Both the position numbers and the translations under genes were made by a program. From assembly GCA_963746015.1 (NCBI GenBank), contig CAVUZS010000012.1, forward strand, positions 3,924 through 67,923: 64,000 nucleotides of DNA. Direction: 5' to 3'. Source of the DNA: an uncultured Chloroflexia bacterium. GTDB taxonomy: Bacteria; Chloroflexota; Anaerolineae; Anaerolineales; Villigracilaceae. The notes beneath the pieces are model-generated. The model was given only the letters and a program-made list of their open reading frames with translations. It had not been told where the DNA came from and searched no databases. How positions within the stretch are numbered: the first letter of the stretch is position 1; each line of letters begins with the position of its first letter. Shown here in pieces: positions 112 through 42,945 of the stretch.

Positions 112-181
112 GGCGCTCTCCTCTCTCAGCAAGGGGTCAGTTTGCCATGAGAACCTATTTCTATCAATCCTGTAGTAAGTT

Positions 182-451
182 ATGCGCTATTGCAAATTAT
201 CGAAGTATGTACACAGTGGTGGCCCCTATCTGCAAACAAAATCTGGAAGATTATCGCCAAAATATATACCAACTGAATTTATCTCCTGGTGTGAAATGTT
301 CAAAGACGTTCAGAAATATGTTAATATCTTGTTCGCTCTTTATTTTTCAGAGGAATTTAAAAAAATGCTACCGCAAGAAATAGAATCAATACTAGATTTA
401 GCTATTGGCACAGAATATAAAGAATACGTTAAGAAAGTTTGTGGTTTATAA
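182..451 (+). CDS. small hypothetical protein (89 aa) directly upstream of the methyltransferase
   Basis: ORF track 182..451. It is AT-rich like the neighbouring methylase, and its stop lies 6 nt before the methylase ATG at 457. No recognisable motif. It may be shorter or non-coding. Confidence 0.25.
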   Translation: MRYCKLSKYVHSGGPYLQTKSGRLSPKYIPTEFISWCEMFKDVQKYVNILFALYFSEEFKKMLPQEIESILDLAIGTEYKEYVKKVCGL

Positions 452-456
452 ATCCG

Positions 457-1548
457 ATGATCAATGTTAAATTAAATGTTGAAATAGAAAAAAGTATCTC
501 GTTTTTTCCAACAACTCGTTATCAAGGAAGTAAAAGGCGACTATTACCGTGGTTCTACAAAATATTTAAAGACATTACGTTCGAATCGGTTTTAGACGGG
601 TGTGGAGGTTCAGCAAGCGTTAGCTATTTGTTCAAGCTCATGGGCAAAGAGGTTCATTATAACGACATCTTATTGTCTAACTACCAGACAGGATTGGCAT
701 TAATTGAGAATAACGATGTAGTATTGAGTTCAAATGATGTCGAATTTATATTGGCGAAAAACGATTCTCAAATCCCGACTTTCATAAAAGACACTTTTGA
801 TGGCATTTATTATTACCCCGATGAGAATATCTGGTTAGACATGGTTGTGAACAATATTGGGAAACTATCAAATATCTATAGTGGTGATATTTTAGTTAAG
901 AAACGAGCCCTGGCTTATAACGCTCTTTTTCAGGCCTGCCTAACCAAACGGCCTTATAACTTATTTCATCGAAAGAATCTGTATATGCGCGAGGCCAATG
1001 TTCCTCGATCTTTTGGTAATAAAAAAACATGGGACACTCCATTTCCAAACTTGTTTAGCAGATTTGTTCTAGAAACATCATCTAAGGTTTTCTCTAATAA
1101 TAAAGAGAACAGGGCAACTTGTGATGATTTAATGATGTTGAAGAATAATAACTATGACCTTGTCTACCTTGATCCGCCATACCAAAGACCGTCAGATAAT
1201 CATCCTCAAGATTACTATTCTTTATATCATTTTCTTGAAGGCCTAGTAAATTATGATAATTGGTCATCCAAAATTAATTCCTCTAAAATTCACAAGCCTC
1301 TAATAAAACAGGCATCGTTATTTGATAGCTTGAATCCATCGGAACGATTTGACCACATTCTAAAAGCGTTTCAAGAATCTATTATTGTCATATCTTATGG
1401 AGATCCAGGTAAACCCACAGTAGCCGAACTAAAAAGTATTCTTAGTAAGTACAAAAAAAACGTAGAGTGCTTTGATGTTGAATTTTCATATAAATTAAAT
1501 AAGAAAAATGGTAACAATTTACGAGAAGTAATACTTGTTGGTATATAA
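457..1548 (+). CDS. DNA N6-adenine methyltransferase, Dam/D12 (alpha) class, no adjacent nuclease
   Basis: The track ORF 439..1548 starts at TTG; I prefer the ATG at 457 (MINVKL...). Motifs are RYQGSKRRLLPW (the Dam-family Y-x-G-x-K), the AdoMet loop DGCGGSASV, and a downstream catalytic LVYLDPPYQ (DPPY). Confidence 0.8.
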   Translation: MINVKLNVEIEKSISFFPTTRYQGSKRRLLPWFYKIFKDITFESVLDGCGGSASVSYLFKLMGKEVHYNDILLSNYQTGLALIENNDVVLSSNDVEFILAKNDSQIPTFIKDTFDGIYYYPDENIWLDMVVNNIGKLSNIYSGDILVKKRALAYNALFQACLTKRPYNLFHRKNLYMREANVPRSFGNKKTWDTPFPNLFSRFVLETSSKVFSNNKENRATCDDLMMLKNNNYDLVYLDPPYQRPSDNHPQDYYSLYHFLEGLVNYDNWSSKINSSKIHKPLIKQASLFDSLNPSERFDHILKAFQESIIVISYGDPGKPTVAELKSILSKYKKNVECFDVEFSYKLNKKNGNNLREVILVGI

Positions 1549-1684
1549 GCAACAATGTGCTTAATCTACTACACACAACATGCATTGTATGAAGTAGTAT
1601 TGTATAATCGGGGTGATAATCCACTAAAACGAAGCAATTATGCTGTCATTTCTACTTCGCATAAAATAGGGAGAACCGAAAACC

Positions 1685-1948
1685 ATGACAAATCCTGTTA
1701 CCGATTGGAAAGAAGCGCCCAAGAATAAACCACCTGAATGGATGGATTTGAGCAAAGGGTTGTACGTTTGCAAAAACGGTACGATCTGGATTGCGCTTAC
1801 GCCTGAACAGATATCCATGCTGAAAGCGGAAAGTGAAACCAACCTTGGGCACAACTACCTCAGACCGATGTTTAGTAAAGGTTATGCCAAAGCATTGGAG
1901 GATGGTGCAATCGTTGTCCGTATTATGGGAATTGAAAATTTATGGTGA
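1685..1948 (+). CDS. hypothetical small protein (87 aa), translationally coupled to the recombinase
   Basis: ORF track. AGGGAGA Shine-Dalgarno about 9 nt upstream. Its stop overlaps the next ORF's start (ATGGTGA at 1942-1948). No motif recognised. Confidence 0.4.
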   Translation: MTNPVTDWKEAPKNKPPEWMDLSKGLYVCKNGTIWIALTPEQISMLKAESETNLGHNYLRPMFSKGYAKALEDGAIVVRIMGIENLW

Positions 1949-2958
1949 CCGGCCTATTGAGTGCATTTCAAACCCATCTGGCTGAGAACCCGCTGCCATC
2001 CCGCCGGCGGCAGGGAGCGTCCGCTAAAACCATCCAGGGTTATGTCCAGGATATAACGCATCTTCCTGCGCTGGTGGCAGGGGAGCTTTGGCGAAGAACT
2101 AACCATGGATGCGCCTCCGGTCCGATCCATTTCGCCTGAATCGCAAGGTTCTCCAGGATTTTCTGTCCTGGCTCCAGACCACCCAGCGGTATTCGGCCAG
2201 CACAGTCTTGCGCTATGCGGCCAGCCTGCGGGCGTTCTGCCAGTACTTGGTTGGTATCGAAGTCATTCAGCACGATCCGGCGTTGGGGTTACGGCTGCCG
2301 GTTAAGAAGGCCCAGGAACCGAGAGGACTGGACGATGCGCAGCGTGCCCGCTTCGAAGCGGCTTTCCAGTCCCCCTGGGTGGACAAGGTGACGAAGCGCA
2401 AGCGCACCTACGAAACCCAGGCCGGATTACGTTTGATCCGGGACAAGGCGATCGCTTTCCTGATGCTGTATGCCGGTCCACGCGTCGAAGAGGTCGAGCG
2501 GTTGACTCTGGAGGATGTCGAACTGCGGCCCAAATCCGGGGTGCTGCATATCCGCCAGGGCAAAGGCTTCCGGGAGCGGGATGTCCCGCTGCCGAAGCCG
2601 GCCCGGGAACCCCTGGAAGCCTGGCTGAAGGAACGCGAGAAGCTGGGGATTTCGCACGAGGCGTTATTCGTGGAACTACGCGCTGGTGGTCGGCGATTGT
2701 CCCGGCGCTCGATGCAGAACATGGTCGCCGAGGCAGGGCAGCGGGCAGGCCTGGATCGGCTCGATCCGCCGGTGAAGGTCACTCCGCATGTTTTGCGTCA
2801 CACGTATGCATACATGCTGCGCCAGGCTGGGGTTATCCACGGAAGTGCGGGCGGAGATGTCCGGGCACTCCATCGAGACGGCCATGAAATACGGCCGTCC
2901 GAAGGCCAGGGAGAAGGAGCGGGCAGCCGAGGCTCTGGATGATATGGTGGGTGTTTAA
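1942..2958 (+). pseudogene. tyrosine recombinase/integrase (XerC/D-phage integrase family) with two to three frame changes
   Basis: The N-terminal SAM-like domain is split between ORF 1942..2139 (LSAFQTHL...AKTIQGYVQDITHL) and ORF 2109..2942 (RKVLQDFLSWLQ...STVLRYAASLRAFCQYL). The catalytic domain carries ...HVLRHTYA.... The C-terminal LSTEVRAEMSGHSIETAMKY, which holds the catalytic Tyr, is only read after dropping one G of GGGG 2829-2832; the frame then ends at TAA 2956-2958. Confidence 0.75.
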
Positions 2959-3003
2959 TTGATGCGTTTTATATGAAAAACATTGGAATAACGGAATAAA
3001 GGA

Positions 3004-3034
3004 TTGTCAATTATACGGCATTGCCGTATAATTG
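3004..3034 (+). promoter_or_regulatory. sigma70-like promoter plus palindromic operator of the toxin-antitoxin operon; probably a leaderless mRNA
   Basis: TTGTCA (3004-3009), a 17-nt spacer, then TATAAT (3027-3032). The higB ATG is at 3039, only 7 nt after the -10, and there is no SD. A 12-bp inverted repeat CAATTATACGGC-att-GCCGTATAATTG (3008-3034) overlaps the -10. Confidence 0.5.
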
Positions 3035-3038
3035 ATTT

Positions 3039-3350
3039 ATGGAGTTCATCGAAGCCATTGCCTTTACCAAGCACGTATACAAATACCTGACCGATGACGA
3101 GTTTTTGGGATTACAAGGTTTCTTGCTCAAATATCCAGAATTTGGGAAAATTGTTCCCGGTTCTGGAGGCGTCAGAAAACTTCGCTGGGGTGCCTCGGGA
3201 AAGGGCAAGAGTGGCGGTGTGCGTGTGATCTATTACTTCAAAAAGCAGGATGACGAGATTTGGTTGCTTACCATTTATAGTAAAAATGAAACGGAAAATA
3301 TTCCCGCCCATATCCTGCACCAGATTAGAAAGGAGATAGAAAATGACTAA
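3039..3350 (+). CDS. higB: type II toxin, RelE/ParE superfamily (HigB-2-like)
   Basis: 103 aa. Motif GGVRKLRWGASGKGKSGGVRVIYYF...IWLLTIYSKNE. The toxin gene comes first and overlaps the antitoxin gene by 8 nt. Confidence 0.8.
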   Translation: MEFIEAIAFTKHVYKYLTDDEFLGLQGFLLKYPEFGKIVPGSGGVRKLRWGASGKGKSGGVRVIYYFKKQDDEIWLLTIYSKNETENIPAHILHQIRKEIEND

Positions 3351-3630
3351 ACGTGATATTGGTTTAGAAATACTCGAAGGTATTCATGACATTAAAGCCC
3401 ATAAAGCAGGGAAGATTACTTTGCGTACCCATAGCTTGAAAGAACCTGACCCGCCCCAAGTTATTCGCGCTAAACTGAAATTATCTCAGGCGGCCTTTGC
3501 AGGTTTGATGGGAGTCAGCCTGCGTACTGTTCAGGATTGGGAACAGGGGCGGCGGAAACCAAGCGGCCCTGCCGAAGCCTTGTTACGGATTGCTGAACAG
3601 AAACCCGAAGTGTTTACGCAGATTGTGTGA
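3343..3630 (+). CDS. higA: HTH (XRE-type) antitoxin, HigA-2-like
   Basis: 95 aa. LSQAAFAGLMGVSLRTVQDWEQGRRKPSGPAEALLRI is a typical Cro/C1 HTH with the Q-G-R-R-x-P signature. Confidence 0.8.
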   Translation: MTKRDIGLEILEGIHDIKAHKAGKITLRTHSLKEPDPPQVIRAKLKLSQAAFAGLMGVSLRTVQDWEQGRRKPSGPAEALLRIAEQKPEVFTQIV

Positions 3631-3665
3631 TCTGTCAGGGAAATTCTTGGAGTTTGATTTTATAG

Positions 3666-3696
3666 AAAGCCGCTTATATAAATCGGCTTTTGATTT
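3666..3696 (+). terminator. probable intrinsic terminator after higA
   Basis: Stem AAAGCCG (3666-3672) pairs with CGGCTTT (3684-3690) around an 11-nt loop, followed by a T-rich tail TGATTT. Confidence 0.4.
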
Positions 3697-3733
3697 GGAT
3701 GTCTTATGAAGTTGGGCAATAATACAGAAAGCC

Positions 3734-5171
3734 ATGAAACAACTTGTCGATCATGAGTTTGTAGCCCGTGGTGAAGCATTCCGTGGCGATATTTCAGCCC
3801 CAATTACAATTCGCGGAACATACTCTGACTTCGAGCCTAAGCCTGTCCAATGTATAGTCATGCCTGAAACCAGTGTGTGGCCAAGCGGCTTTAATGCATT
3901 TAATGAGGCAAATCCTGCTCAAATGAAATGTAAAGCGCATGATGGGGAAGACGTCTGGATTTCTGGTTTATCTCAGGTTTCATCTTATGGTAATGGCGAT
4001 CAGATGCACTGGGAAGGAGTTGCTGAGACCTTTCTTAAGGGCGATTTAGATGAATTTGACGCAACTGATGGTGAGATCATTTGCACAGCATATATTCCTC
4101 CTACTGCTCTTGCTAGGACTGACGCTAACTATACTTACTCTAATGATGGCACAATCGTTATGGAGCTTCATGGCAGCGCAAGAGAAGGAATTCGTTGGAA
4201 TACAAAACTTGGGTTGGCAGAACTAATAGACAATTACGAGTACATAAATGAAAAAAAACGGCATTAACAAGACTGTGATACGTATTCAGAGGTGCCAGAT
4301 TGTTATAAGGTTTAAGAGCATTGGCTTAGTTTCTTTGGGGAATATACTGCGAGAGTTGCCAACAATATTGGATGAAACTCTGTGGTTGGTCACATTCTTA
4401 GGCCGGAAGAGAATAGCTTGGTACGCTGGTGAAGCAGTTTTCATTCCTGGTGGGGGACCTACTCAAAACTTTAAGCAAGCAGTTATTCACCGCCGAAGTT
4501 GGCTTGGTTACGAAAGCCAAATAGGGAGTGGCGAATTACAGCTTGACCTACTCATTCCTCCGAAAGAGTTAAGAAGAGAGTTGTTTCAAAAATTAATCAC
4601 AAGCTATGAAGCATCGAAGTACAAAGAAGTTATTCGTAGAACGATCCCTCATATTCTCGTGTCGTATGAGCGCGGGTATCTTGAATCACATATCGGGAAT
4701 GCGTACTTGGCGCTAGAGAGCCTCGTTGCCGGCCTTAGTTCTGAGAGAGATGATACCGTAGCTCAATTGATGCAATCGGCAACATTCAAACAACTTACCA
4801 AGAAGATAAAACAGACCATTCACGAAGAAGTGAAAGAACGAGCAACTGCTCAGGGAATCATTAAGAAACTCGGGGAGTTGAATTGTCCCTCTTTTCTTGA
4901 CAGATTGATAAAGTTGATCAAGAAATATGACGTGCCAGTGACGCTGTTATGGCCTTCAGGATCCAACATTGAGTCAGAGCTTCATGACATCTTATTGAGA
5001 CGCAATATATACATCCACCAAGGACGGCTCGCCGATATTGATCTTTCTTTGTATGATTTTGTTCGAGTAAGAAATCTTGTCGAACTCTGGATACTTAAAC
5101 TGCTTAATTGTCCTGATGGAGTAATCAATGTACACGCCTTGAGTAATCTTATGCCTATAGACAAAGCATAA
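3734..5171 (+). CDS. HEPN-motif protein (ApeA-like architecture?), 484 aa once a frameshift in an A8 run is corrected
   Basis: ORFs 3734..4267 and 4248..5171 overlap at AAAAAAAA (4251-4258). Removing one A fuses them as ...NYEYINEKNGINKTVIRIQ.... The C-terminus carries LLRRNIYIHQG, i.e. the R-N-x-x-x-H HEPN RNase motif. The N-terminal ~330 aa could not be assigned. Confidence 0.55.
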
Positions 5172-31357: not shown

Positions 31358-33870
31358 TCATCCGGCGTTATTCTTTGCTTTTAAAGCACTCCAAACTTTC
31401 TCCGGCGTGACCGGGTTCCTGTCGATGTTTACGCCAACGGCGTCCAGGATGGCATTTCCGACCGCCGGGGCAACACCGTCCATCGGGATTTCCGCCACGG
31501 CCTTGACGCCGAACGGATGGGTCGGTTCGAAGGTTTCGACGAAAATGGCGGTCAGCTCGGGCATTTCGTCGGCACGGAAAATGTGGTAATGGTCGAAGTC
31601 ACGTTCACGCGCCCGGCCTTTGCCATCATAGACCATCTCTTCGCAGACGGCATACCCCAGCGCCTGGGTCATCCCGCCCTCGATCTGGCCGGAGGCCGTC
31701 AGCGGATTGACGATGACACCGCTGTCCACCGCCATGACCAGCTTATCCACGGTATAAGCGCCGGTCTGCGTATCCACGGTCACCTCGGCAAATTGGGCAG
31801 CGAAGGGCGGCGGGGAAGAAGGAGAAACGTAAGAAGCCACGCCCATGATCTGTTCCTGGTCATTGTGGTGCAAGCTGTCGAGGGCAATTTCTGCAAGGGA
31901 TATCGATCTACCATCCGGGGCAATTGCCAACCGGTTGGCGAGTTGAATGTCGGCAGGTTTTATATCAGCAACCTTTCCTTCCCCTTCCGCCTTTTGACTC
32001 GAGAAAAGGCTGGCAGCCCGGGCTTTGATCTTGTCGGCAACGATCCGGGCGGCATTGGCAACCGCCGTACCGGAAATGTACGTGGTGGACGAAGCATAGG
32101 CACCCTTATCGAAAGGCGTGAAGTCGGTGTCTGAAGAGTAAGCGATGATGTCATCCAGTGGCACACCGAGCACTTCGGCGGCCATTTGCGCCAGGACCGT
32201 ATCGGAGCCGGTCCCCAGATCCGTGGCGCCTACCAACAGGTTGAAGGAACCATCGTCATTCATTTTTATGGAGGCGCCACCCATATCCAGGTATGGGATG
32301 GCAGTGCCTTGCATGACGAGCGCGGCGCCGATGCCCTTGCGTTTTACTGTGTCACGTTTTCCGGTTTCACGCGGCATCGCTGTATGCCATGCCGCGTTCC
32401 CGTATTTCGAGTCCCAATCGATGGCTGCCTTGCCCTGCCGGACACATTCCTCCAGGCCGACGGTATGGACGATCTCGGGACGCGGCTCGCGCCCCTCGTT
32501 CCAGGCGGTGCTGAAGGGGTGGTGCTCACCGGGATGGATGGCATTCTTCAGGCGGAATTCGAGCGGGTCGAGACCGAGAGCCCGTGCGATCTTCTCCATG
32601 TGACGCTCGACCGCCCAGAACCCCTGCGGTACGCCATAGCCGCGGAATGCTCCGGCGGGCGGCGTGTTGGTGTAGACAATATCGGCATAGAACCGGATAT
32701 TGGGGGATTTCCGGTATGGCCCATCGCCAACGTACAAGGCCATGGACTTTGACCCGGTGTTACCGGTCACGGTCACGGCGTGGCAGCCGTACGCGCCGGT
32801 ATCGCTCAAGATACGCATTGCGTTGGCGGTCATGGTACCATCGCGCTTGACACCGGTTTTCATCCAGATGCGCATCGGATGGCGGGAACGCGCGGCGATG
32901 AATTCCTCTTCGCGGCTGTATTCGTAGATGACCGGGCGGCCGGTGGCGATGGTCAGGTGGGCCGCCACGTCTTCCATCAAGACTTCCTGCTTGCCGCCGA
33001 AACCGCCGCCGATCCTTGGCTTGATGACGCGGATGCGCTTAACCGGCAGCCCCAGCACCGGAGCCAGCTGCCGCCGGACGTGGAACGGAACCTGGGTGCT
33101 GGTGCGGATAACCAGGCGGTCGTCTTCGTCCCAATATGTGATCGTTACGTGCGGCTCGATATGCGCCTGCTGAACCTTGGGGACGGCGTACTCGGCCTCG
33201 AAGATTTCATCGGCTTCTGCAAAGCCTTTTTCCACGTCGCCGATGTCAATGCGGATCTCGGCGGCCAGGTTCTTCTCCGGGTTGGAATCGGCAAAGTTGA
33301 CATACTCCGGTTCGTCGTGGATGCGCGGTGCGCCGGGCTTCATGGAATCGGCCGGGTCGAGCAATGGCAGGGAGAATTTCATAGTCCACGTCGATAAGAT
33401 GCAAGGCCTGCTCGGCGATCTCGGGCGTTTCGGCGGCAACGAAGGCAACCCGGTCGCCCACGAAACGGACTTTGTTGTCCAGCGAAAAAGTATCCAGCGG
33501 GCCCGGGATCGGGTCGGATTGCCCGGCGGTGGAATAAACCACGCGCGGAATATCCTGCCAGGTCAGTACGGCGGCCACTCCGGGCAAGGCACGTGCCCGG
33601 CTGGCATCGATCCGTGTAATGCGGGCATGGGCGTGCGGCGAGTGCAGCACTTTGGCGTGCAACAACCCGCGCAATTCGATATCCGCGGTAAAGGCGGGTT
33701 TCCCCTGGGCGAGCTTGATGGCATCCACTTTCGGTTCGGGTTTGCCAACGACCTGATAAGGAGTGGTTTCCGGGGTGAGCACGATCTTTGGCGTGGTCCG
33801 GGTCAAGGTAATGGGGGATTGAGTGTCAGGTAAGATGGGATTGTCAGCGAGCAAGATGCCTTGATCACGT
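31358..33870 (-). CDS. molybdopterin-binding large subunit of a xanthine dehydrogenase/aldehyde oxidoreductase family enzyme (one frameshift; start uncertain)
   Basis: ORF 33246..34079 supplies the a/b-hammerhead region (LHAKVLHSPHAHARITRID...PGVAAVLT). ORF 31358..33448 supplies the rest, including RIGGGFGGKQE. The frames overlap at 33246-33448. Confidence 0.85.
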
Positions 33871-34382
33871 ACTCCCTGCAGAATCGGGTTCCTTTTCTCC
33901 GCGGATGACCGCGGCGGCCTGCAAAATGGCTTGGACGGGCTTGGCGTAGCCAGTGCAACGGCAAAGAACACCCGCAATGGCTTGGCGGACTTCACTTTCG
34001 GTCGGATTCGGGTTCTTATCCAGCAAGGCTTTGGCAGCCAGAATTTGCGCCGGGGTACAGTAGCCGCACTGGATGGCACCAGTCTCGATAAAGGCCAGTT
34101 GGAGAGGGTGCAGGCCGCCGGTCTTCTTCCAGCCCTGGTCGGGATGTTCGCCGAGGGCTTCGATGGTAGCGATGCGTGTGGCCTTCGGCTTGCGCGGCCA
34201 GCATAGAACCCGCATTGACCGGGCGCCCGTCCAGCAGGACGGTATCCGTACCGGCCAGCCCCTGTTCGTCGCCGAATTTGACACCATAGTAGCCGAGACT
34301 GCGCAGGGTTGTGAATAAGGTTTCGGATGGAAGGGTTTCAACTTCCTTCTCCACACCATTAATCAGTCAATTTAATGTTCAT
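33865..34382 (-). CDS. [2Fe-2S]-binding small subunit of the same enzyme (two frameshifts)
   Basis: ATG 34382 (MNIKLT..) shifts to ...NGVEKEVETLPSETLFTTLR (ORF 34016..34354), then to IATIEALG...QCGYCTPAQ...CRCTGY (ORF 33865..34359). Confidence 0.85.
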
Positions 34383-34383
34383 A

Positions 34384-34968
34384 TTACCTCTTGGATTTCC
34401 TGTATTTCGTGACCGGCTGGGGAACAAAGTGCGCGATCAAGCCGGCTGCTCCTGCCAGCAGCAACCCAAGCGCGGCCACAAATATCCATTGGATGAGTGA
34501 AAGCAAAGCCAGGTATGAAGTATAAAATTCGGGCAGAGTCCACGTGACGAGGATACCATTAACCGCGAAACTGACCAGGATGGGTAAAGCCAGCAGGTAG
34601 ATGGTGAGAAACACAAAGCCCAGCGAAGTCTCCGCAGCCCTGCGCGGGCCCGCCTGGAAGGCATGCATACGCAGCATCGAAACCAGCCAGCCAATGACCA
34701 GCGCTATGGAAGCAGTGACAGCCGTGTAGGTGATAAGCCAGGTCTGGCTCTCGACAGAACTTAAAGAATATGTCCGCCCATCCAGGATGGCATAGCGGAA
34801 ATTAAATACCAGTACGTAGACCAGCGCGCCGCCTGCCAGCCAGAGGATCTTCTTTTTCCCGCTGATGACGAGTAGATAAGGCTGGCAAAACCGCCAGGGT
34901 GATCGCAGCCAGGTTACGCCAGACGCGCTCGCTGACAAGGCGGTTGGCGCGGGCGCTATCAATGGCAA
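34384..34968 (-). CDS. hypothetical integral membrane protein
   Basis: About 5 hydrophobic helices. The N-terminus is uncertain and may be frameshifted (see ORF 34802..35035). Confidence 0.4.
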   Translation of the reverse strand: MPLIAPAPTALSASASGVTWLRSPWRFCQPYLLVISGKKKILWLAGGALVYVLVFNFRYAILDGRTYSLSSVESQTWLITYTAVTASIALVIGWLVSMLRMHAFQAGPRRAAETSLGFVFLTIYLLALPILVSFAVNGILVTWTLPEFYTSYLALLSLIQWIFVAALGLLLAGAAGLIAHFVPQPVTKYRKSKR

Positions 34969-34985
34969 TTACGTATGAAAAAGGA

Positions 34986-37849
<2,864 letters not shown>

Positions 37850-37951
37850 AATGAAAATCCTTCACAACCTCTGAATTCTCGAAGAATAGGGCGAGAATTT
37901 TAGCGCTGTCTCCAGGGACGGTGGAGTCGAGGAATAAAATATTTGAGGAAA

Positions 37952-40308
37952 TCATTCAGATTTTGACTGGTCGAAAAAAGAACTTTGCTGAGATATTTTT
38001 ACAAAACCGCTTTTTCTAGTGATTAAACCTGCAAATTCAAGCCAATTGGCCAACACTTTGCTCCGCCAATTCCAAGTTTCATTAGTAAATGCCATTTCTC
38101 CTAGGACCGTTCGTAATATATCTTGATGCTTTTGTTTTTTAGTGGATGATTTAACTAAAGTTAAATAGCGTTGGATAGTAGGTAGGGTAAGTAAGAAATC
38201 TCTAATTATTTGTGGTCGCATAAGATCATTGTCTCTGAAAGTTTGACCTAATTCAGTTAATAGATAATAGCGCTCATCGTCGTAAGTCTGTAAAATACCC
38301 ATTCGTAAGCAATCTAACGATATTTTGTAGCTCAGGTTTGCCCTTTCAACCAACTTGCTTGTTTTAATAGAATTGAGAAATACTACGATCTCCGACGTAT
38401 AAATTGATGGGAGAAATGTGTCGGAATCAAGCAATTTGGATCTAGTTGTTCCGAGTGCCTTATTATTTTCGCCAATTATCTGCCCAGGCTTTATCAACCC
38501 TACGAACCTTAGCCAACTTGTAAAAGTTCTCGCATAATTTTGCCAACTTCTATCAGATATTTCCAAGATAGGTAACCCGTTCTTGAGGTATTCAATAAGT
38601 TGTTCAAGGGTTATTTTTTCCTGTGTAGCCATTGTGTTTAATAATCTGTTAACCAAGCCATTTCTTTTCCAGACCCTATCTCTTATTAATGTATCTAACT
38701 CGCCTTTTTGGTAAGATTCGATTGCATCTTTGTCAATTATTAATTGCCCTCTGACGGTTTCAATAAAACCAAGCACCCTCAATTCTCTTAACACATTTTG
38801 CATTGTTTGATGTGTAATAGTCGAGAAGTTTTCACTTAATTCTTTTACAGTACTATATTCATGTTCAACAATTGCGACAAGAGTTTTGTGTGTAGTCGTC
38901 GGAGAACTTCGAAAAACAAATTTTGACGATAAAGGGACCTCTCCGGTCTTAAGATATTCTTTAAACACATCATTGTAAGTGTCATATGTTCGGCCAATCA
39001 ACCTGATTAATCTTTGATCTTGTAAAAGCTTTAGCTTAGTCGCCAATTCTTTCCCATCAAATTTTAGGGATAGTTCGTCTAATGTGGCAGGTAAATATTT
39101 GGCAACCTCTTTTAAAAATTCTTTGTCGATAATTTCAAGACTTGCTAAATCCTCTTCGAACAAATCTTCAAGTTTTATACCATTTTGAATGAGTTCTTCT
39201 TGTGTTAGTCCTTTATTCTTGATTGTTTCGAGTATATGTGCCCCAACCCGTTTACACAACCAAGGAAAACCTGATGCAGCAAACTCTAAGGCGACTTTCT
39301 GCAATTCTGTTTTGATAGGCTGATTTAACTCGGTTTCAAGGTGTGAGAGGAGCTCTTTCGCTTCATTTCTTGAGAAATCCTTTAGTTCAACACTTTTTGA
39401 CAAACTCTGTAACCTTGGTAAATCTAATTCAACGCGGTCATCATATGTTGTGGGTTGGTCATTGCGACGCGCTAAACAAAAAACAACATTTTTAGTTTCA
39501 TGTGTAATACGTATTACTAAATCTAAAAAATACGCAAATAAATCAGGTTTTTGAAATAGGCTTTCGAATTGGTCAACAAAAATTAATCCAAGGTACCCTT
39601 GCTGTTTAAGTTTCAGATCTAAGTTCGCAAACTGCTCTAAAACAGATTTTGTATCTGGCGGAATTGCATCTGGAAATCCTATAACATCTTTGCAGCTTTC
39701 TAGGAAATTCTGTATTAATGCAAGTAAGTCAACCGTACTTCTAAAATTCCGTGCATCTTCGAAGACCATACAACTTTTTAATTGTAAAGTGTCTTGCAAT
39801 TTTAGGAGAAATGAGCTTTTTCCAACTCCGCTAGGACTAAGCGCTTGATATATTCGAATGCCAGTCTCGCCGTTATTAACACCCTGAATAAAACCTAAGA
39901 AATCGTCTATTTGTTTTGATCTTCCAATAAAAAAATGTGGCGGGGCAGGCAGTTTATATTCAAACCAACTTGCTCCTTCGGGCCCTGGACCTATTGGCCC
40001 AGCAGGAATATCAAGGATGGAAGCAAATGTGCCCCTTTCTTTTAAAAAACTCAGCTCTTTTAATTCATCAATCTGCAATTTTAATTTTTCGCCTATATCT
40101 GAGATGAAATTTCCGCCTTTGTCTAACAAGCAAAATGCCTTTGGGCGGGTTTCATTCAGGCGAACTAAAAGTTGAATAAAGAAATTCCCTCTATCGCTTA
40201 TTAGAAGATGTGTATCGCCAGCTTTATTCTGGAATTTGTTTTGTGACTTTTTCTTAATATCACTTATTGATGGATAATTTATTTCGACAAGCCTATCAAA
40301 TATTTGTT
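37952..40308 (-). pseudogene. C-terminal 782 codons of an IS-disrupted Mrr-like nuclease/P-loop NTPase gene
   Basis: The frame stays open from 40330 down to 37952, but contains no ATG, GTG or TTG before TTG 40129. It carries FIGRSKQIDDFL...ALSPSGVGKSSFLL (Walker A) and GLIFVDQFESL (Walker B), then ~450 aa of helical/winged-helix-like sequence. Confidence 0.8.
40300..40308. repeat. target-site duplication ATATTTGTT (left copy)
   Basis: Identical 9-mer at 41504-41512, immediately outside the IS inverted repeats. Confidence 0.85.
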
Positions 40309-41503
40309 CTAGCCACCCGACAGTTTGATGTCATAGGTAGGTACAAAGCGGAACAGAGATAGAAAAGGCATTGGTCAATCTCCTTTGGATATAGCGCAGG
40401 CCGATCTGGAAAATGCTTAAATCGCGGCGGTCATTCCGATCGACCAGGTGTCGCAAGCCTTGATGAATGGTACGTCCGCCGACAGAAATCAACCAGACAT
40501 ACAAGATGGCCACCGCGAGTGTCAGGCGAGAGAGACGCAAGAAATCACGTAACATCGTACTTTCCAAATCGAAGCCATGTTTTTTGAAGTCGGCGTGCAT
40601 TTCTTCGCACCACATCCTGAGCCGGTAATACTTCAAAGCCATCTTGTGGTCGGGCAGGTTAGTGGCTAAACACCAGGGTTCTTCTTCACCGGTTTTCCAG
40701 TAGATCAGCAAGTTGGTTGGATAGATTTCGCTGGAGGTCAGGTAGCCAGCACCGAGCCAGTAGCTTTCACCGGCCTCGTGAACGAATCTGCCGAACGGCT
40801 TCCACTCGTTGTATTGGTTCAACCAGACACAGGTATCTGATTTTTGGCGTAAAACATAGAACCAGGGCCATTGATCGAGCCATTTCAGGACTTCCACCGA
40901 GCCAAATTCGCAGTCACCGACCAGAAAAACGGCTGCACCGACAGGTAAGAGCTTCCTGATATAGTTCAGCAAGGCCAATTGCTTGAAGGCACTGCTGTGT
41001 CCACGAACATGGCTGACCCAAGTCCATGCAATCGGGATCGCCCGTTTTCGATATGCCAGACTGACCATGAGCAACTGATGCCCAAAACCAACTTTCGTAC
41101 CATCCACGATCAGATGGATATCTCTCAAACAACGCCATTGCGCTTCCAGCCATTGGTGTGCAATCGGCTCATACCATTCTCGAACATTGACTGCCGGGTT
41201 GTCCAAGAAACGGCTCAGGCGACGAGCAATGCTCACCAACTTCGCCGGCCCAGGGATCTTTCCGGCTATTCTGCTCAAATAGACCGAGTGACTTTGGTAG
41301 ATCCCTACAATCAGCCAGACAAAGTTCCGTTGCTGGGTAATTCTTTGGTTTGGCCGCAATTCACAAATTCGTCGCATCCAAGTATGATAGAGTTCGTTGA
41401 TCGGCATTCCGCATCTCCAAGTATTCGGTTTCGTGGTAGGAACCTAATTTACTCGGTTTTGCTTGCCGATCAACATCTTTTTACAAAACTGTCAGGTGGC
41501 TAG
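40309..41503 (-). mobile_element. IS4-family insertion sequence (1195 bp)
   Basis: Terminal inverted repeats are CTAGCCACCCGACAGTTT (40309-40326) and the reverse complement of 41486-41503 (CTAGCCACCTGACAGTTT), matching at 17 of 18 positions. There is a 9-bp TSD and a single DDE transposase ORF. Confidence 0.9.
40331..41407 (-). CDS. IS4-family DDE transposase
   Basis: 358 aa. Candidate catalytic residues are in LIVDGTKV, FLVGDCEFG and WCEEMH. The IS4 signature Y-(2)-R-(3)-E-(6)-K is present as YRLRMWCEEMHADFK. Confidence 0.88.
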   Translation of the reverse strand: MPINELYHTWMRRICELRPNQRITQQRNFVWLIVGIYQSHSVYLSRIAGKIPGPAKLVSIARRLSRFLDNPAVNVREWYEPIAHQWLEAQWRCLRDIHLIVDGTKVGFGHQLLMVSLAYRKRAIPIAWTWVSHVRGHSSAFKQLALLNYIRKLLPVGAAVFLVGDCEFGSVEVLKWLDQWPWFYVLRQKSDTCVWLNQYNEWKPFGRFVHEAGESYWLGAGYLTSSEIYPTNLLIYWKTGEEEPWCLATNLPDHKMALKYYRLRMWCEEMHADFKKHGFDLESTMLRDFLRLSRLTLAVAILYVWLISVGGRTIHQGLRHLVDRNDRRDLSIFQIGLRYIQRRLTNAFSISVPLCTYL

Positions 41504-41512
41504 ATATTTGTT
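41504..41512. repeat. target-site duplication ATATTTGTT (right copy)
   Basis: See 40300-40308. Confidence 0.85.
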
Positions 41513-41894
41513 CAGATGCAATTAATTCAATTCTATCGCGTTTACCTTTTTTCAACCTTTGTATAAATTCCTTCGCATCTGGAGTTAAATCGCTCGTTGA
41601 AACAAAGAGACCTAAAGCATCTTCTGGAAAATCTTCTAAATCTAAACTGCCAACGAATTCTGACATTATCTGAGAATTGATAGCCGCTTCATAAGCTTTT
41701 GCTTGTCCGATAAGTAGCCGATTGCCGAGCTTTGCTTTGGCCTTAACATCGTATTCTTTTCCGGCTTTCTTAACTCTTAATTCAATATCTTTATAACCAA
41801 GTGAACTAACGATCTCTTTGACAAGACCTTCAAAGAGAAGACCTTTTTCATAATTAGTTTGGTGTGCCGATTGGAAGTTTACAAAAAAGAACAT
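41504..41894 (-). pseudogene. N-terminal 130 codons of the IS-disrupted gene: Mrr-cat-like PD-(D/E)xK nuclease domain
   Basis: AAGGAGG SD 5 nt upstream of ATG 41894. Motifs KGLLFEGLVKEIVSSLGY, GKEYDVKA and LLIGQAKA give the E...D...QxK pattern of Mrr-type restriction nuclease domains. Track ORF 41481..41894 reads on into the IS before stopping. Confidence 0.75.
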
Positions 41895-42189
41895 GCGACC
41901 TCCTTATCTGAAGCAAGAAACTCTCCAACAATGATGGATGTTATCGATTTGTAGTTGGTAAAGATATTACTTTGCTGGTACAGCCGCAACCTTTCTCCAA
42001 TAATTCATCAAAGTTCGCTTTTTGGCTGCCTCTGATAACCTTTCTGATATACAAGCATATCTCGTACCATACTGAACCTGAGCGTTTCACATATAGCAGG
42101 AAGGTTGTATTGAAGTAGTTTCGGATTTCAGTTCCACTCTTCTTCCAGCCAATGGAAAAATACTGGAAAGGTTAGTCAAAAAGTGACGG

Positions 42190-42945
42190 TCACAACGTGG
42201 CATCCAGGCATCTCTTTGCAAGTACAAAGGCGACTTCGCTACGATATTCGGCTGAGGCCCATTCATCGGCGGCTTCCGAGCAGGCGTTGCGAGCAGCTTC
42301 CTGCAGGCCACCGGACTCGTTCCCATCCAAAGCCAGGGTGGGAGCCGGCCCCCACCCACCGAGCGCCAGGCGTGTCCGCCCGGAGGGCCATTGCGCCAGC
42401 GCGGCGCAGACAATCGGCTTGTCGGCCGGGGTGCGGGCAACGGTCTCGAAGGCGACTTTGACATTCAGGGGAATTTCCACCTTGATGATGAGCTTGCCCG
42501 GCTGGGCACCGCCAGCCCCGAGGCGTAAAGGCAAATAATTTCCCAATGTGATTTTCTCATTGCCGGAAGCAAAAGTAACTTTGGCATCCAAGGCAAGCAT
42601 TAGCGTGCCAAAAGGGGAACGCCCGTCACACGTTACCAGCGTCCCTGCCACGGTCCCCATGGTACGCAAGTTGAGGGGCGTTTCCAGCATGATGGCTGCT
42701 TTCAGCGCTTTGACAACGTATGAGGATTCGAGCAGAGTCTGTAAGGTGGCGATCGCACCGATTTCGAGATTGTTCCCGATTTTACGGAGCTTGTCCAAGC
42801 CGAGGGCTTGCAGATCCACAACGGAGAAGGATTCACCGCTGTATTGCGTGAGTACCGTTCCGCCGCCGAGTGGACGCGTATCCGCACGCGCAAGCAGTTG
42901 CAGGGCCTCTTCCAGAGTCTGGGGACGGTAATATTGAGTAATCAT
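42190..42945 (-). CDS. FAD-binding (CoxM/XdhB-like) medium subunit of a molybdopterin dehydrogenase
   Basis: 251 aa. YYRPQTLEEALQLLA...PLGGGT matches the FAD_binding_5 pattern, with a CO-dehydrogenase flavoprotein C-terminal part. Confidence 0.82.
   Translation of the reverse strand: MITQYYRPQTLEEALQLLARADTRPLGGGTVLTQYSGESFSVVDLQALGLDKLRKIGNNLEIGAIATLQTLLESSYVVKALKAAIMLETPLNLRTMGTVAGTLVTCDGRSPFGTLMLALDAKVTFASGNEKITLGNYLPLRLGAGGAQPGKLIIKVEIPLNVKVAFETVARTPADKPIVCAALAQWPSGRTRLALGGWGPAPTLALDGNESGGLQEAARNACSEAADEWASAEYRSEVAFVLAKRCLDATL

What the first reader, a model, noticed from the sequence alone, without database searches (positions are those of the whole stretch)
37952..41894. A 912-aa Mrr-like nuclease / P-loop NTPase / winged-helix gene, split by an IS4 element and exactly reconstructable: candidate undescribed defence gene
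Seen directly:
- An 1195-bp IS (40309-41503) has 18-bp terminal inverted repeats, CTAGCCACC(C/T)GACAGTTT, matching at 17 of 18 positions.
- It is flanked by identical 9-bp direct repeats ATATTTGTT (40300-40308 and 41504-41512).
- The minus-strand frame below the IS is open from 40330, but has no ATG, GTG or TTG until 40129. This is what an interrupted gene looks like.
- Deleting the IS plus one repeat copy joins ORF 41894..41504 to 40299..37952 in phase (...RDRIELIASEQI|FDRLVEINYPSIS...). That is 2739 nt, or 912 aa.

Domain order:
- An N-terminal PD-(D/E)xK module of the Mrr restriction-nuclease type (FEGLV, EYDVKA, GQAKA).
- A central NTPase with an F-x-GR lead-in, Walker A SPSGVGKSS and Walker B LIFVDQFE, i.e. 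STAND/AAA_16/ORC-like.
- About 450 aa of helical, winged-helix-like C-terminal sequence.

An effector-NTPase-sensor layout inside an AT-rich island next to an R-M system is the logic of Avs/STAND antiviral proteins. The protein is much shorter than those, and I see no TPR-like sensor. I cannot place it in a named family. The IS insertion implies the gene is currently inactive here.
Basis: partly seen in the sequence, partly recalled or inferred. Interest (0 to 1): 0.8.

Follow-up and report, generated by a model that had tools for sequence, protein, structure and literature searches.

The report
IS-split Mrr–STAND–winged-helix defence nuclease gene
An IS4 element has cleanly interrupted a 912-aa gene from a large, uncharacterised family of single-protein nuclease–ATPase–winged-helix proteins that behaves like an anti-phage immune receptor but carries a DNA-reader-like sensor instead of the usual helical-repeat one.

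Summary
A 1195-bp IS4-family element, with 17/18 inverted ends and a 9-bp target duplication, splits a minus-strand gene. Removing it restores one 912-aa ORF.

More than 50 uninterrupted homologues of 903–942 aa align across the junction without a gap. The family has at least 500 clusters at 50% identity. It is found in many bacterial phyla, in archaea, on plasmids, on viral contigs and in 35 of 5,426 complete E. coli genomes.

The architecture is constant:
- an Mrr-type PD-(D/E)xK nuclease;
- a small β-domain;
- an nSTAND1-clade STAND ATPase, with invariant Walker A, Walker B and GxP motifs;
- a duplicated double-winged-helix C-terminal module.

There is no conserved partner gene. Members are AT-rich relative to their flanks. 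They sit beside R-M systems, inside Type 3 BREX operons, in an E. coli lambdoid prophage and in integrative islands, and several are broken.

The best structural match is Avs4. PADLOC 2023 has no full-length match, and the sensor is not TPR-like.

My reading is an Avs-like, ligand-gated, oligomerising DNase whose trigger may be nucleic acid, inactive in this window. It is a new variant of a known kind. No experimental description was found.

The parts
41513..41894 (-). 5' fragment of the gene: ATG at 41894-41892 and codons 1-127, i.e. nearly the whole Mrr-type PD-(D/E)xK nuclease domain. Catalytic D49 is at 41748-41750. Q64-A-K66 ends at 41697. As it stands it is a 137-aa ORF (41481-41894) that runs into the IS.
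   Evidence: In one search the 137-aa fragment alone hits Mrr_cat at E 6e-13. E22, E47, D49 and K66 are conserved in 70-73 of 73 homologues.
41899..41905 (-). Shine-Dalgarno AAGGAGG, 4 nt upstream of the start codon. The AT-rich upstream region extends to about 42170.
   Evidence: Read directly. Composition.
41504..41512 (.). Target-site duplication, right copy (ATATTTGTT).
40309..41503 (-). IS4-family insertion sequence of 1195 bp. The 18-bp terminal inverted repeats are at 40309-40326 and 41486-41503. The transposase gene is at 40331-41407(-), 358 aa.
   Evidence: inverted repeat I2.
40300..40308 (.). Target-site duplication, left copy (ATATTTGTT). In the restored gene it codes the junction ...EQI.
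40073..40267 (-). Small conserved β-rich linker domain (residues 142-206) between the nuclease and the NTPase. Function unknown.
   Evidence: AF2 model, pLDDT above 90 in this region. Mean column identity 0.61.
39431..39943 (-). STAND nucleotide-binding domain (residues 250-420). It holds the F-x-G-R lead-in, Walker A LSPSGVGKSS (39812-39841) and Walker B LIFVDQFE (39563-39586).
   Evidence: Pfam nSTAND1. G256, R257, G288, G290, K291, S292, S293, D373 and E376 are invariant in 73 of 73 sequences.
38936..39430 (-). STAND helical domain carrying the invariant GxP motif (G474-F-P476-W-L-x-K480), followed by the STAND's own winged-helix domain (residues 421-585).
   Evidence: AF2 secondary structure. 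Invariance. Foldseek matches to Avs4, ORC/Cdc6, NOD2 and MalT.
38486..38923 (-). Sensor module 1 (residues 590-735): a double winged-helix unit that matches Pfam AAA_assoc_C.
37976..38428 (-). Sensor module 2 (residues 755-905): a duplicate of module 1. It is the most variable part of the protein but ends in an invariant Trp (W883).
   Evidence: hhalign of module 1 against module 2 gives probability 98% and E 2.6e-13. Conservation.
37952..37954 (-). Stop codon of the gene.
37184..37849 (-). Context: Type II restriction endonuclease gene in the same low-GC island.
   Evidence: PADLOC REase_II PDLC03487, E 2.9e-51, full length.
36051..37193 (-). Context: cognate N6/N4 DNA methyltransferase with a C-terminal RAMA domain. 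It lies at the end of the low-GC island.
   Evidence: Pfam N6_N4_Mtase E 7.9e-69 and RAMA E 1.3e-10. PADLOC MTase_II E 5.9e-169. GC profile.

Best explanation
The restored gene encodes a one-protein immune receptor-effector of the STAND (NLR-like) kind.

**Proposed mechanism.**
- At rest the protein is a nucleotide-bound, auto-inhibited monomer.
- The C-terminal sensor is two copies of a double winged-helix module. It binds an invader-derived ligand. The fold suggests a nucleic-acid feature, but a phage protein is not excluded.
- Ligand binding lets the nSTAND1 ATPase exchange nucleotide and oligomerise.
- Oligomerisation brings the N-terminal Mrr-type PD-(D/E)xK domains together into an active DNase.
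- The DNase cuts DNA, which either destroys the invader or kills the infected cell.

**Lifestyle.** The gene works alone. It moves horizontally as AT-rich cargo of prophages, plasmids, integrative islands and defence operons. It is costly enough to be lost often.

**In this window.** A recent IS4 insertion after codon 130 separates the nuclease domain from the switch and sensor. The gene is therefore inactive here.

**Shown:**
- the insertion and its exact reversal;
- the domain architecture;
- conservation of the motifs;
- the absence of a conserved partner;
- the genomic contexts.

**Inferred:**
- ligand gating;
- oligomerisation;
- DNA cleavage;
- the anti-phage role.
For: **Architecture and catalytic competence.**
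- Mrr_cat, nSTAND1 and AAA_assoc_C/wHTH hits.
- AF2 model with pLDDT 85.6 and pTM 0.70 showing nuclease, β-domain, NBD, HD, WHD and four further winged helices.
- In 73 sequences sharing only 24-48% identity:
  - E22, E47, G256, R257, GxGKSS, D373, E376, G474, P476, W477 and K480 are invariant.
  - D49, K66 and Q374 are conserved in 70-72 of 73.

**Similarity to Avs4.**
- The best structural match in the PDB is Avs4 bound to phage portal (8dgf, E 7.6e-9).
- Next come ORC/Cdc6, SAMD9, NOD2 and MalT.

**Family size and constant length.**
- 59 hits were found, of which 51 full-length ones (887-942 aa) were aligned.
- 187 species-representative genomes encode a relative.
- 500 clusters at 50% identity score E<=1e-30, nearly all 880-960 aa.

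**No partner gene.**
- The commonest neighbour cluster is a tyrosine integrase, in 6 of 78 loci.

**Defence and mobile context.**
- The window copy shares a low-GC island with an intact Type II R-M system.
- Two distant MAGs carry the gene co-directionally inside Type 3 BREX operons, with overlapping gene ends:
  - brxF-brxC-...-pglXI-[gene]-brxHI-pglZ-brxA
  - brxF-brxC-x-pglXI-[gene]-pglZ-brxA
- Other loci adjoin Type IIG R-M genes, HmaC/DUF499, Lamassu genes, PDC candidates, toxin-antitoxin genes and integrases.
- In E. coli strain 127 the gene lies inside a Rac-like prophage.
- In two other E. coli strains it lies in YagK/YfjJ-type islands.
- 15 plasmid records and 17 IMG/VR viral contigs carry a member.

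**Horizontal transfer.**
- The gene has more than 5 points lower GC than its flanks in 51 of 66 loci.
- The median difference is -8.7 points, and it never exceeds +5.

**Repeated inactivation.**
- IS4 here.
- An IS3 5'-truncation on an Enterobacter plasmid.
- Split copies in L007, L010, L023 and L031.
Against: - No experiment on any member was found.
- The NTPase hit to nSTAND1 is marginal for the window copy (27.4 bits against a cutoff of 27.1).
- Many loci sit among ordinary housekeeping genes. I could not compute a proper per-locus enrichment statistic.
- Foldseek alignments to Avs4 have low TM-scores (0.19), as expected for multidomain proteins in different conformations.
- The sensor is not TPR-like, so the Avs protein-wrapping mechanism may not carry over.
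- The window copy has Q, not E, at residue 64 of the nuclease motif. Q occurs in 7 of 52 close relatives, and PMC11037411 describes the Mrr catalytic motif as PD-QXK.
Confidence: 0.6

Rival explanations
1. It is an NTP-dependent Type IV (modification-dependent) restriction enzyme. The winged-helix array reads modified or otherwise marked DNA, as Mrr_N and the DpnI wH domain do. The P-loop domain drives assembly on DNA, and the Mrr domain cuts the marked DNA directly. There is no abortive-infection logic.
For: - The catalytic domain is Mrr_cat, and PADLOC's only hits are mREase_IV and PDC-S02.
- C-terminal fragments hit DNA-binding wHTH families: HrcA in 11 of 23, TrmB in 7 of 23, MarR in 3 and Mrr_N in 3.
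- The best, though weak, fold matches of the sensor include the DNA-recognition domains of FokI, BpuJI and N.BspD6I.
- The gene usually stands alone without a methyltransferase. PMC11037411 uses this as a criterion for Type IV enzymes.
- That paper lists wH-Mrr-NTPase and RAMA-Mrr-NTPase fusions as putative NTP-dependent Type IV systems.
Against: - The NTPase is a STAND, with a GxP motif, a WHD, an nSTAND1 hit, and fold matches to Avs4, NOD2 and MalT. It is not a McrB-type AAA+ GTPase or a helicase.
- The domain order differs from the fusions noted in PMC11037411.
- The sensor fold matches all have E above 1e-3.
- The window copy sits beside an active-looking N6/N4 methyltransferase. That would be a conflict if it read that mark.
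Confidence: 0.2
2. It is a BREX-type auxiliary ('backup') nuclease. It needs signals from a methylation-based system such as BREX or R-M, for example nicked or unmethylated DNA, and does not work as an autonomous receptor.
For: - In two unrelated MAGs the gene is embedded with overlapping gene ends inside Type 3 BREX operons. In one of them it occupies the slot where brxHI is otherwise found.
- The window copy, L024 and L062 are next to R-M genes.
- PMC12839542 reports PD-(D/E)XK nucleases as the commonest auxiliary effectors embedded in BREX loci.
Against: - Only 2 of 78 loci are in BREX.
- No neighbour is conserved.
- The E. coli prophage, island and plasmid copies have no such partner.
Confidence: 0.08
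3. It is not a defence gene. It could be a DNA-binding STAND regulator or a maintenance/addiction factor of mobile elements, with a nuclease-fold domain that is regulatory rather than catalytic.
For: - STANDs with HTH outputs such as MalT are transcription factors, and MalT is among the fold matches.
- The gene travels with integrases and IS elements.
- Several loci lie among housekeeping genes.
Against: - The nuclease catalytic residues are conserved across phyla. Inactive REase domains normally lose them.
- The gene is embedded in BREX operons and lies among prophage cargo genes.
- There is no conserved target operon next to it.
Confidence: 0.05

Closest known systems
Avs4 (antiviral STAND type 4; PDB 8dgf)
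   Same: - A single polypeptide with an N-terminal Mrr-like PD-(D/E)xK nuclease, a central STAND ATPase and a C-terminal sensor.
- It is the best structural match to the model.
- The mechanism is presumably the same: oligomerise, then cut.
   Different: - Avs4 is about 1500 aa, with a large TPR-like sensor that wraps the phage portal protein.
- This family is about 900 aa, and its sensor is two double winged-helix modules.
- No PADLOC Avs model hits it.
- The NTPase falls under Pfam nSTAND1.
nSTAND1 clade of conflict-system STAND NTPases (Kaur et al. 2021, PMC8195603; Pfam PF20703)
   Same: - The NTPase domain matches this Pfam family.
- PGAP names E. coli members 'nSTAND1 domain-containing NTPase'.
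- The clade was predicted to act in counter-invader systems with swappable effectors.
   Different: - The clade was defined in multi-domain, multi-gene systems of multicellular bacteria with Death-like or EAD adaptor domains.
- The passages of that paper retrieved by a term search do not describe the Mrr-nSTAND1-(wH)4 architecture.
E. coli Mrr and wH-nuclease Type IV restriction enzymes (DpnI-like; PMC11037411)
   Same: - The same catalytic domain family (Mrr_cat, including the PD-QxK variant seen in the window copy).
- Winged-helix domains on the same polypeptide.
- Mostly stand-alone genes without a methyltransferase.
   Different: - Mrr has one N-terminal wH domain and no NTPase.
- Here a STAND switch lies between the nuclease and four C-terminal wH domains.
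- Modification dependence has not been tested.
Avs7-Avs21 families of Lee et al. 2026 (PMC13581612)
   Same: STAND immune receptors with nuclease or other effectors. Several come from E. coli, Enterobacter and Acinetobacter, genera that also carry this family.
   Different: - The paper states that the sensors of Avs8 and Avs10-21 are TPR-like and bind one phage protein. This family's sensor is not TPR-like.
- I could not check whether the family equals Avs22-24 or one of the 589 clades, because the supplementary tables are not held.
Archaeal 'Walker-type ATPase' PAB2304 / SSO1545 (PF01637; PDB 2qen, 2fna)
   Same: ORC/STAND-like ATPase core followed by a winged helix. It is the second-best fold match (TM 0.51 on the target).
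   Different: - These proteins have about 350 aa.
- They have no nuclease and no sensor array.
- Their function is unknown.
DNA-recognition domains of Type IIS enzymes FokI, BpuJI and N.BspD6I; SelB C-terminal four-wH array
   Same: Tandem winged-helix arrays that read nucleic acid. They are the top fold matches of the isolated sensor.
   Different: The matches are weak (E from 1e-3 to 8e-2, TM 0.15-0.29) and there is no sequence similarity. This is a lead, not proof of DNA binding.

Membership tests
IS4-family insertion sequence | DDE transposase of the IS4 family | tested here: met
   NCBIfam NF033591 scores 174 bits against a cutoff of 152. Pfam DDE_Tnp_1 scores 30.9 against 23.
IS4-family insertion sequence | Terminal inverted repeats and a short target-site duplication | tested here: met
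   18-bp inverted repeats matching at 17 of 18 positions, and an identical 9-bp duplication.
STAND NTPase superfamily | P-loop NTPase with Walker A GxxGxGK[ST] and Walker B hhhhD followed by acidic residues | tested here: met
   SGVGKSS and VDQFE. G288, G290, K291, S292, S293, D373 and E376 are invariant in 73 of 73 sequences.
STAND NTPase superfamily | Helical domain with a GxP motif, followed by a winged-helix domain (Leipe et al. 2004; from my own knowledge) | tested here: met
   G474-x-P476 is invariant in 73 of 73 sequences. The AF2 model shows a helical bundle at 424-515 and a wH domain at 520-582.
STAND NTPase superfamily | Sequence or fold membership | tested here: met
   Pfam nSTAND1 scores 27.4 bits (cutoff 27.1) for the window copy and 33.1 bits for the E. 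coli copy. Foldseek matches Avs4, NOD2, MalT, SAMD9 and ORC at probability 1.0.
STAND NTPase superfamily | Ligand-induced, nucleotide-dependent oligomerisation | not testable with these tools
   This needs biochemistry or multimer modelling.
Avs4 | N-terminal Mrr-like nuclease fused to a STAND ATPase | tested here: met
Avs4 | Large TPR-like C-terminal sensor that binds the phage portal protein | tested here: not met
   The C-terminus is a winged-helix array with no TPR hits above noise. The protein has 912 aa against about 1500.
Avs4 | Match to the family's HMM in a defence database | tested here: not met
   PADLOC v2.0.0 gives no Avs/AVAST hit at E<=0.1 for the window protein, nor at E<=0.01 for the E. 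coli or A. pittii proteins.
Mrr / Type IV restriction endonuclease | Mrr_cat PD-(D/E/Q)xK catalytic domain with intact residues | tested here: met
   Mrr_cat E 1.4e-11. E22, D49, Q/E64 and K66 are conserved.
Mrr / Type IV restriction endonuclease | N-terminal Mrr_N winged-helix DNA-binding domain and no NTPase | tested here: not met
   The nuclease is N-terminal and a STAND ATPase follows it. Only 3 of 23 C-terminal fragments hit Mrr_N, weakly (best E 8.7e-4).
Mrr / Type IV restriction endonuclease | Cleavage depends on DNA modification | not testable with these tools
   This needs in vivo or in vitro assays.
McrBC-like NTP-dependent restriction | McrB-type AAA+ GTPase with a McrC partner | tested here: not met
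   No McrB or McrC hits and no conserved partner gene.
BREX (as a core component) | Conserved presence in BREX operons | tested here: not met
   The gene is embedded in Type 3 BREX in only 2 of 78 loci. Elsewhere it is solitary.
Defence gene (operational definition) | Recurrent location next to known defence systems or as mobile-element cargo | tested here: inconclusive
   There are clear cases: R-M, BREX, Type IIG R-M, HmaC/DUF499, Lamassu, a prophage, plasmids and viral contigs. Many loci are among housekeeping genes, and no per-locus statistic could be computed.
Defence gene (operational definition) | Protection against phage or plasmid | not testable with these tools
   Experiment required.

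The most novel reading that the evidence does not exclude
The family would be a prokaryotic STAND immune receptor that senses nucleic acid rather than a phage protein. Its duplicated double winged-helix sensor would read a DNA or RNA feature of the invader and so license ATP-driven assembly of an Mrr DNase.

That would be a compact 'NLR plus restriction enzyme' hybrid, found from E. coli prophages to Asgard archaea and recruited into BREX operons.

Lee et al. 2026 explicitly leave open whether any STAND senses non-protein molecules.
Probability: 0.25. Interest if true: 0.8.

Novelty: new variant of a known kind. Interest (0 to 1): 0.5.

Why it matters
Bacterial STAND/Avs receptors are the closest prokaryotic counterparts of animal and plant NLRs. 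Every family whose trigger was identified in the work I read uses a helical-repeat sensor that wraps a conserved phage protein.

This family keeps the Avs4 effector and switch but replaces the sensor with a tandem winged-helix array of the kind that restriction enzymes use to read DNA. It is also half the size of Avs4.

If the sensor binds nucleic acid, the family would show that the STAND switch can be coupled to DNA sensing. That would link NLR-like immunity and restriction.

The family is broad, spanning many bacterial phyla and archaea, and occurs in E. coli prophages, on Enterobacteriaceae and Acinetobacter plasmids, and inside BREX operons. Native E. coli members make it directly testable.

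For this particular window the gene is dead. The clean IS insertion is a tidy example of how often such costly genes are switched off.

Tried and rejected
**Named defence families and solved structures**
- PADLOC v2.0.0 was run on the window, E. coli and A. pittii proteins. Only the Mrr domain hits (PDC-S02, mREase_IV); there is no Avs, bNACHT or PD-T4/λ/T7 hit.
- NCBIfam gave nothing meaningful.
- A profile search of PDB sequences gave only weak wHTH hits, E>=0.012.

**Conserved partner gene**
- All-against-all clustering of 703 neighbours within 6 kb in 78 loci found none.

**Sensor identity**
- Homology between the sensor and BrxA was tested because both resemble the FokI/BpuJI domains. hhalign gave probability 0.2%, so this was rejected.
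- The STAND's own WHD is not detectably related to the sensor modules.

**IS-free allele**
- An exact search for the empty-site junction in JGI metagenomes gave 0 hits.
- An exact-protein look-up of the neighbouring REase found only a 1.2-kb contig.
- The look-ups of P0001 and of the transposase found nothing.

**Phage genomes**
- INPHARED gave no match. IMG/VR did give 17 contigs.

**Literature**
- Searches for nSTAND1, PF09821/PF20703, Mrr+STAND+winged-helix and accession WP_073511864 found no paper describing the family.
- The supplementary tables of Lee et al. 2026 and of its preprint are not held.
- I therefore could not settle whether the family is one of their 589 clades or one of Avs22-24.

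**Enrichment statistic**
- A rigorous per-locus defence-enrichment statistic could not be made.

**Sensor-1 arginine**
- R408 is conserved in the close subfamily but aligns to W in most distant members.
- I make no claim about it.

Full report
**1. The observation**

- The IS spans 40309-41503 (1195 bp).
- Its 18-bp ends, CTAGCCACC(C/T)GACAGTTT, match at 17 of 18 positions. The motif occurs nowhere else in the window, with 0 matches expected from shuffles.
- Identical 9-bp direct repeats ATATTTGTT flank it at 40300-40308 and 41504-41512.
- It encodes an intact 358-aa DDE transposase at 40331-41407(-). This scores 174 bits against NCBIfam 'IS4 family transposase' (cutoff 152).
- Removing 40309-41512 yields a single minus-strand ORF of 2739 nt, or 912 aa, with junction ...IASEQI|FDRLVEINY.
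- A canonical AAGGAGG lies 4 nt upstream of the ATG at 41894.
- The 3' piece has no start codon before the TTG at 40129. Public databases hold exactly that 725-aa truncated product (P0001, 100% identical).

The identical duplication, the intact transposase and the lack of any other lesion in the gene point to a recent insertion. This last point is inference.

**2. The restored gene is real and belongs to a large family**

- A search of 5.8 billion proteins returned 59 hits. Of these, 51 full-length homologues of 887-942 aa, at 19-59% identity, were aligned with the restored protein.
- They align across the IS junction without a gap; the consensus there is RIxxIVGQQILDxL.
- A profile search of 1.84 billion cluster representatives found 3429 at E<=1e-3, 1183 at E<=1e-10 and 500 at E<=1e-30. 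The top 150 are nearly all 880-960 aa and matched end to end.
- One genome per species (GTDB) gave 187 species with a relative. They include:
  - Chloroflexota, Actinomycetota (Streptomyces, Amycolatopsis), Acidobacteriota, Verrucomicrobiota and Thermodesulfobacteriota;
  - Cyanobacteria and Bacillota;
  - Proteobacteria (Acinetobacter, Pseudomonas, Stenotrophomonas, Enterovibrio);
  - the archaea Promethearchaeota, Methanosarcinales and Thermoplasmata.
- In 78 of the 80 retained loci an ORF matched the query. Most are 894-978 aa, and the shorter ones are split or contig-truncated copies.

**3. Anatomy**

Pfam hits on the restored protein:
- Mrr_cat at residues 21-132 (E 1.4e-11).
- nSTAND1 at residues 252-448 (27.4 bits, cutoff 27.1). 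The E. coli homologue scores 33.1 bits.

An AlphaFold2 model built on the 52-sequence alignment is confident (pLDDT 85.6, pTM 0.70). It shows:

| Residues | Domain |
|---|---|
| 1-136 | Mrr-type α/β nuclease |
| 142-206 | small conserved β-domain |
| 250-420 | nucleotide-binding domain |
| 424-515 | helical domain |
| 520-582 | the STAND's own winged helix |
| 597-899 | four further winged-helix units |

The last four units form two homologous roughly 140-aa modules, 590-735 and 755-905 (hhalign probability 98%, E 2.6e-13).
- Each module matches Pfam AAA_assoc_C. Twenty of 23 C-terminal fragments hit it, and the window copy scores 35.8 bits against a cutoff of 27.6.
- Weaker hits go to the DNA-binding wHTH families HrcA, TrmB, MarR and Mrr_N.

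Conservation in 73 sequences that share only about 24-48% identity with the window protein:
- Invariant: E22, E47, G256, R257, G288, G290, K291, S292, S293, D373, E376, G474, P476, W477, K480, Y572 and W883.
- Conserved in 70-72 of 73: D49, K66, F254, Q374 and D574.
- Residue 64 of the nuclease motif is E in 69 of 73. It is Q in the window copy and in 7 of 52 close relatives.
- PMC11037411 gives 'PD-QXK' as the Mrr catalytic motif, so Q is not a defect.

Both enzymatic centres are therefore under selection. The GxP motif plus a winged helix marks the ATPase as a STAND.

**4. Fold comparisons**

Whole model against the PDB:
- The best match is Avs4 bound to phage portal (8dgf, E 7.6e-9, 932 aligned columns).
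- Next come the archaeal Walker-type ATPase PAB2304, ORC2/Cdc6, SAMD9, NOD2 and MalT.

Sensor alone (residues 585-912, pLDDT 88):
- It has only weak matches, none at E<=1e-3.
- They are consistently tandem winged-helix nucleic-acid readers:
  - SelB C-terminus;
  - the DNA-recognition domains of FokI, BpuJI and N.BspD6I;
  - RPC82 and Stn1;
  - MarR/OhrR.
- Two of the wH units are basic across the family (median pI 9.8 and 9.3), and the ATPase is acidic.

This is a lead towards nucleic-acid binding, not proof.

**5. Context**

No gene travels with the family.
- In 78 loci the most frequent neighbour cluster is a tyrosine integrase, in 6 loci.
- The next real cluster is fragments of the gene itself in four split copies.

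The gene is compositionally foreign almost everywhere.
- It has more than 5 points lower GC than its flanks in 51 of 66 loci.
- The median difference is -8.7 points, and it never exceeds +5.

In the window the low-GC island (about 36050-42170) holds only an intact Type II R-M pair and this gene.

Among the immediate and second neighbours in the genome loci are:
- Type II and Type IIG R-M genes;
- PglX, PglZ, BrxA and BrxH;
- HmaC/DUF499;
- LmuB and LmuC;
- DrmD and DrmMI;
- PD-Lambda-2_B and PDC candidates;
- HepT, HipA and Fic toxins;
- eight integrases.

The most telling cases are two unrelated MAGs in which the gene lies co-directionally, with overlapping gene ends, inside Type 3 BREX operons:
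- L027, Verrucomicrobia: brxF-brxC-...-pglXI-[gene]-brxHI-pglZ-brxA.
- L038, Latescibacterota: brxF-brxC-x-pglXI-[gene]-pglZ-brxA.

Mobile carriers:
- 15 plasmid records carry a member, from Streptomyces, Salmonella, Enterobacter, Acinetobacter, Burkholderia and Nostoc.
- 17 IMG/VR contigs carry a member.
- One metagenomic element carries it together with a serine recombinase, IS66 and TrwB-like genes.

In E. coli, 35 of 5,426 complete genomes carry a member.
- It aligns to the family profile at E 9e-102, with 29% identity over 830 columns.
- In strain 127 it sits in a Rac-like lambdoid prophage, between the replication genes and hokD.
- In strains EC1515 and C311 it sits in a YagK/YfjJ-type island with IS remnants and H-NS.
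- PGAP calls it 'restriction endonuclease' or 'nSTAND1 domain-containing NTPase'.

Several loci are simply inserted among housekeeping genes. The defence-island signal is therefore clear but partial, and I could not turn it into a proper statistic.

Broken copies recur:
- the IS4 insertion here;
- an IS3 5'-truncation on an Enterobacter IncF plasmid;
- three pieces on a Salmonella plasmid;
- split copies in four species-representative genomes.

**6. Mechanism**

The best-supported reading (confidence 0.6) is an Avs-like single-protein receptor-effector.
- The winged-helix sensor binds a ligand.
- The STAND ATPase switches and oligomerises.
- The Mrr domains are brought together and cut DNA.

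Shown:
- the architecture;
- the conserved catalytic and switch residues;
- solitary gene status;
- horizontal mobility;
- defence and mobile-element contexts;
- structural kinship with Avs4.

Inferred:
- gating;
- oligomerisation;
- cleavage;
- phage protection.

The nature of the trigger is open. The sensor fold and its Pfam neighbours favour nucleic acid, but winged helices also bind proteins.

Rivals:
- An NTP-dependent, modification-reading Type IV enzyme (0.2).
- A BREX/R-M-dependent auxiliary nuclease (0.08).
- A non-defence regulator or addiction factor (0.05).

**7. Comparison with what is known**

- The family works like Avs4 but is not Avs4. It has no TPR sensor, no HMM match and half the length.
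- Its ATPase falls in the nSTAND1 clade that Kaur et al. 2021 defined in conflict systems.
- PADLOC v2.0.0 (2023) has no model for it beyond the Mrr domain.
- Lee et al. 2026 (Nature) classified 589 STAND clades, using Mrr among the seed effectors, and tested about 30 sensor clusters.
  - They state that the sensors of Avs8 and Avs10-21 are TPR-like. This family is therefore not one of those.
  - Avs22-24 are E. coli proteins with no identified protein trigger. They cannot be excluded, because the supplementary tables are not held.
  - Their discussion leaves open whether some STANDs sense non-protein molecules.
- PMC11037411 notes wH-Mrr-NTPase and RAMA-Mrr-NTPase fusions as uncharacterised putative Type IV systems. 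These have a different domain order.
- PMC12839542 notes that PD-(D/E)XK nucleases are the commonest auxiliary effectors embedded in BREX loci.
- No paper describing this architecture was found.

**8. Verdict**

- The thing is a new variant of a known kind: a compact STAND/Avs-type nuclease with a winged-helix sensor. It is almost certainly counted in recent censuses, but it was not experimentally described in anything I could read.
- The copy in this window is inactivated.
- Interest is moderate (0.5).
  - The logic is familiar.
  - What is unusual: the sensor type, the family's breadth, its recruitment into BREX operons, and the existence of native E. coli members.
  - Those features make it a good, directly testable candidate for a non-protein-sensing STAND.

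Noticed in passing
window 36051-37849 (-): An intact-looking Type II R-M pair shares the low-GC island with the split gene. It consists of a 221-aa REase and a 380-aa N6/N4 methyltransferase with a C-terminal RAMA domain. The island (about 36050-42170, GC 36-44%) sits in a host background of 57-62% GC.
   Followed up: partly
window 31358-34359 (-): A molybdenum hydroxylase appears in three overlapping reading frames: Fer2_2 in 33865-34359, the Ald_Xan_dh_C hammerhead in 33246-34079, and MoCoBD_1/2 in 31358-33448. It looks like a Mop-type single-chain aldehyde oxidoreductase with two frameshifts and no N-terminal Fer2 domain. It is either a pseudogene or the result of indel errors in the assembly.
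   Followed up: partly
window 42190-42945 (-) versus 31358-34359 (-): The FAD-binding (CoxM-like) subunit gene lies on the other side of the low-GC island from the Fe-S and Mo subunit genes. The island, together with two host-GC genes (34384-36054), seems to sit inside what would normally be one Mo-hydroxylase gene cluster.
   Followed up: no
window 35197-36054 (-): A gene of the alkaline-phosphatase superfamily (Pfam Phosphodiest, with a weaker PglZ-domain hit) has host-like GC. It abuts the methyltransferase gene with a 4-nt overlap. Its relation to the island is unclear.
   Followed up: no
L027 6919-18390; L038 1104-15639: Family members are embedded in Type 3 BREX operons of a Verrucomicrobia MAG and a Latescibacterota MAG, with overlapping gene ends. 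In L038 no brxHI helicase was found among the ORFs scanned, and the family gene occupies its position between pglXI and pglZ.
   Followed up: partly
66 genome loci (L001-L080): Across the family the gene has systematically lower GC than its flanks (median -8.7 points; more than 5 points lower in 51 of 66 loci). This holds in hosts ranging from 26% to 74% GC.
   Followed up: yes
L089 7826-11474; L007, L010, L023, L031; H2 (Salmonella plasmid NZ_CP051385.1): There are independent disruptions of family members. An IS3 truncates the 5' end on an Enterobacter IncF plasmid, which also has IS110 downstream. The Salmonella plasmid copy matched in three separate pieces over three annotated 'hypothetical protein' genes. 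Copies in four species-representative genomes are split or frameshifted. Some of the MAG cases could be assembly errors.
   Followed up: partly
L092 8717-14479; L093 and L094 3713-9479: In E. coli the gene travels as a cassette with an upstream 505-aa protein that has no Pfam or PADLOC hit, plus a decayed IS30. The same cassette sits in a Rac-like prophage in one strain and in a YagK/YfjJ-type island in others.
   Followed up: partly
window 1-5000: Other low-GC stretches occur at the left end of the window (GC 0.37 at 1-2000 and 0.43 at 3001-5000). They may be further foreign DNA.
   Followed up: no
window 41481-41894 (-): The 5' fragment left by the IS is still an intact, promoter- and RBS-equipped 137-aa ORF encoding the whole Mrr nuclease domain (Mrr_cat E 6e-13). 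Whether it is expressed, or tolerated, is unknown.
   Followed up: no
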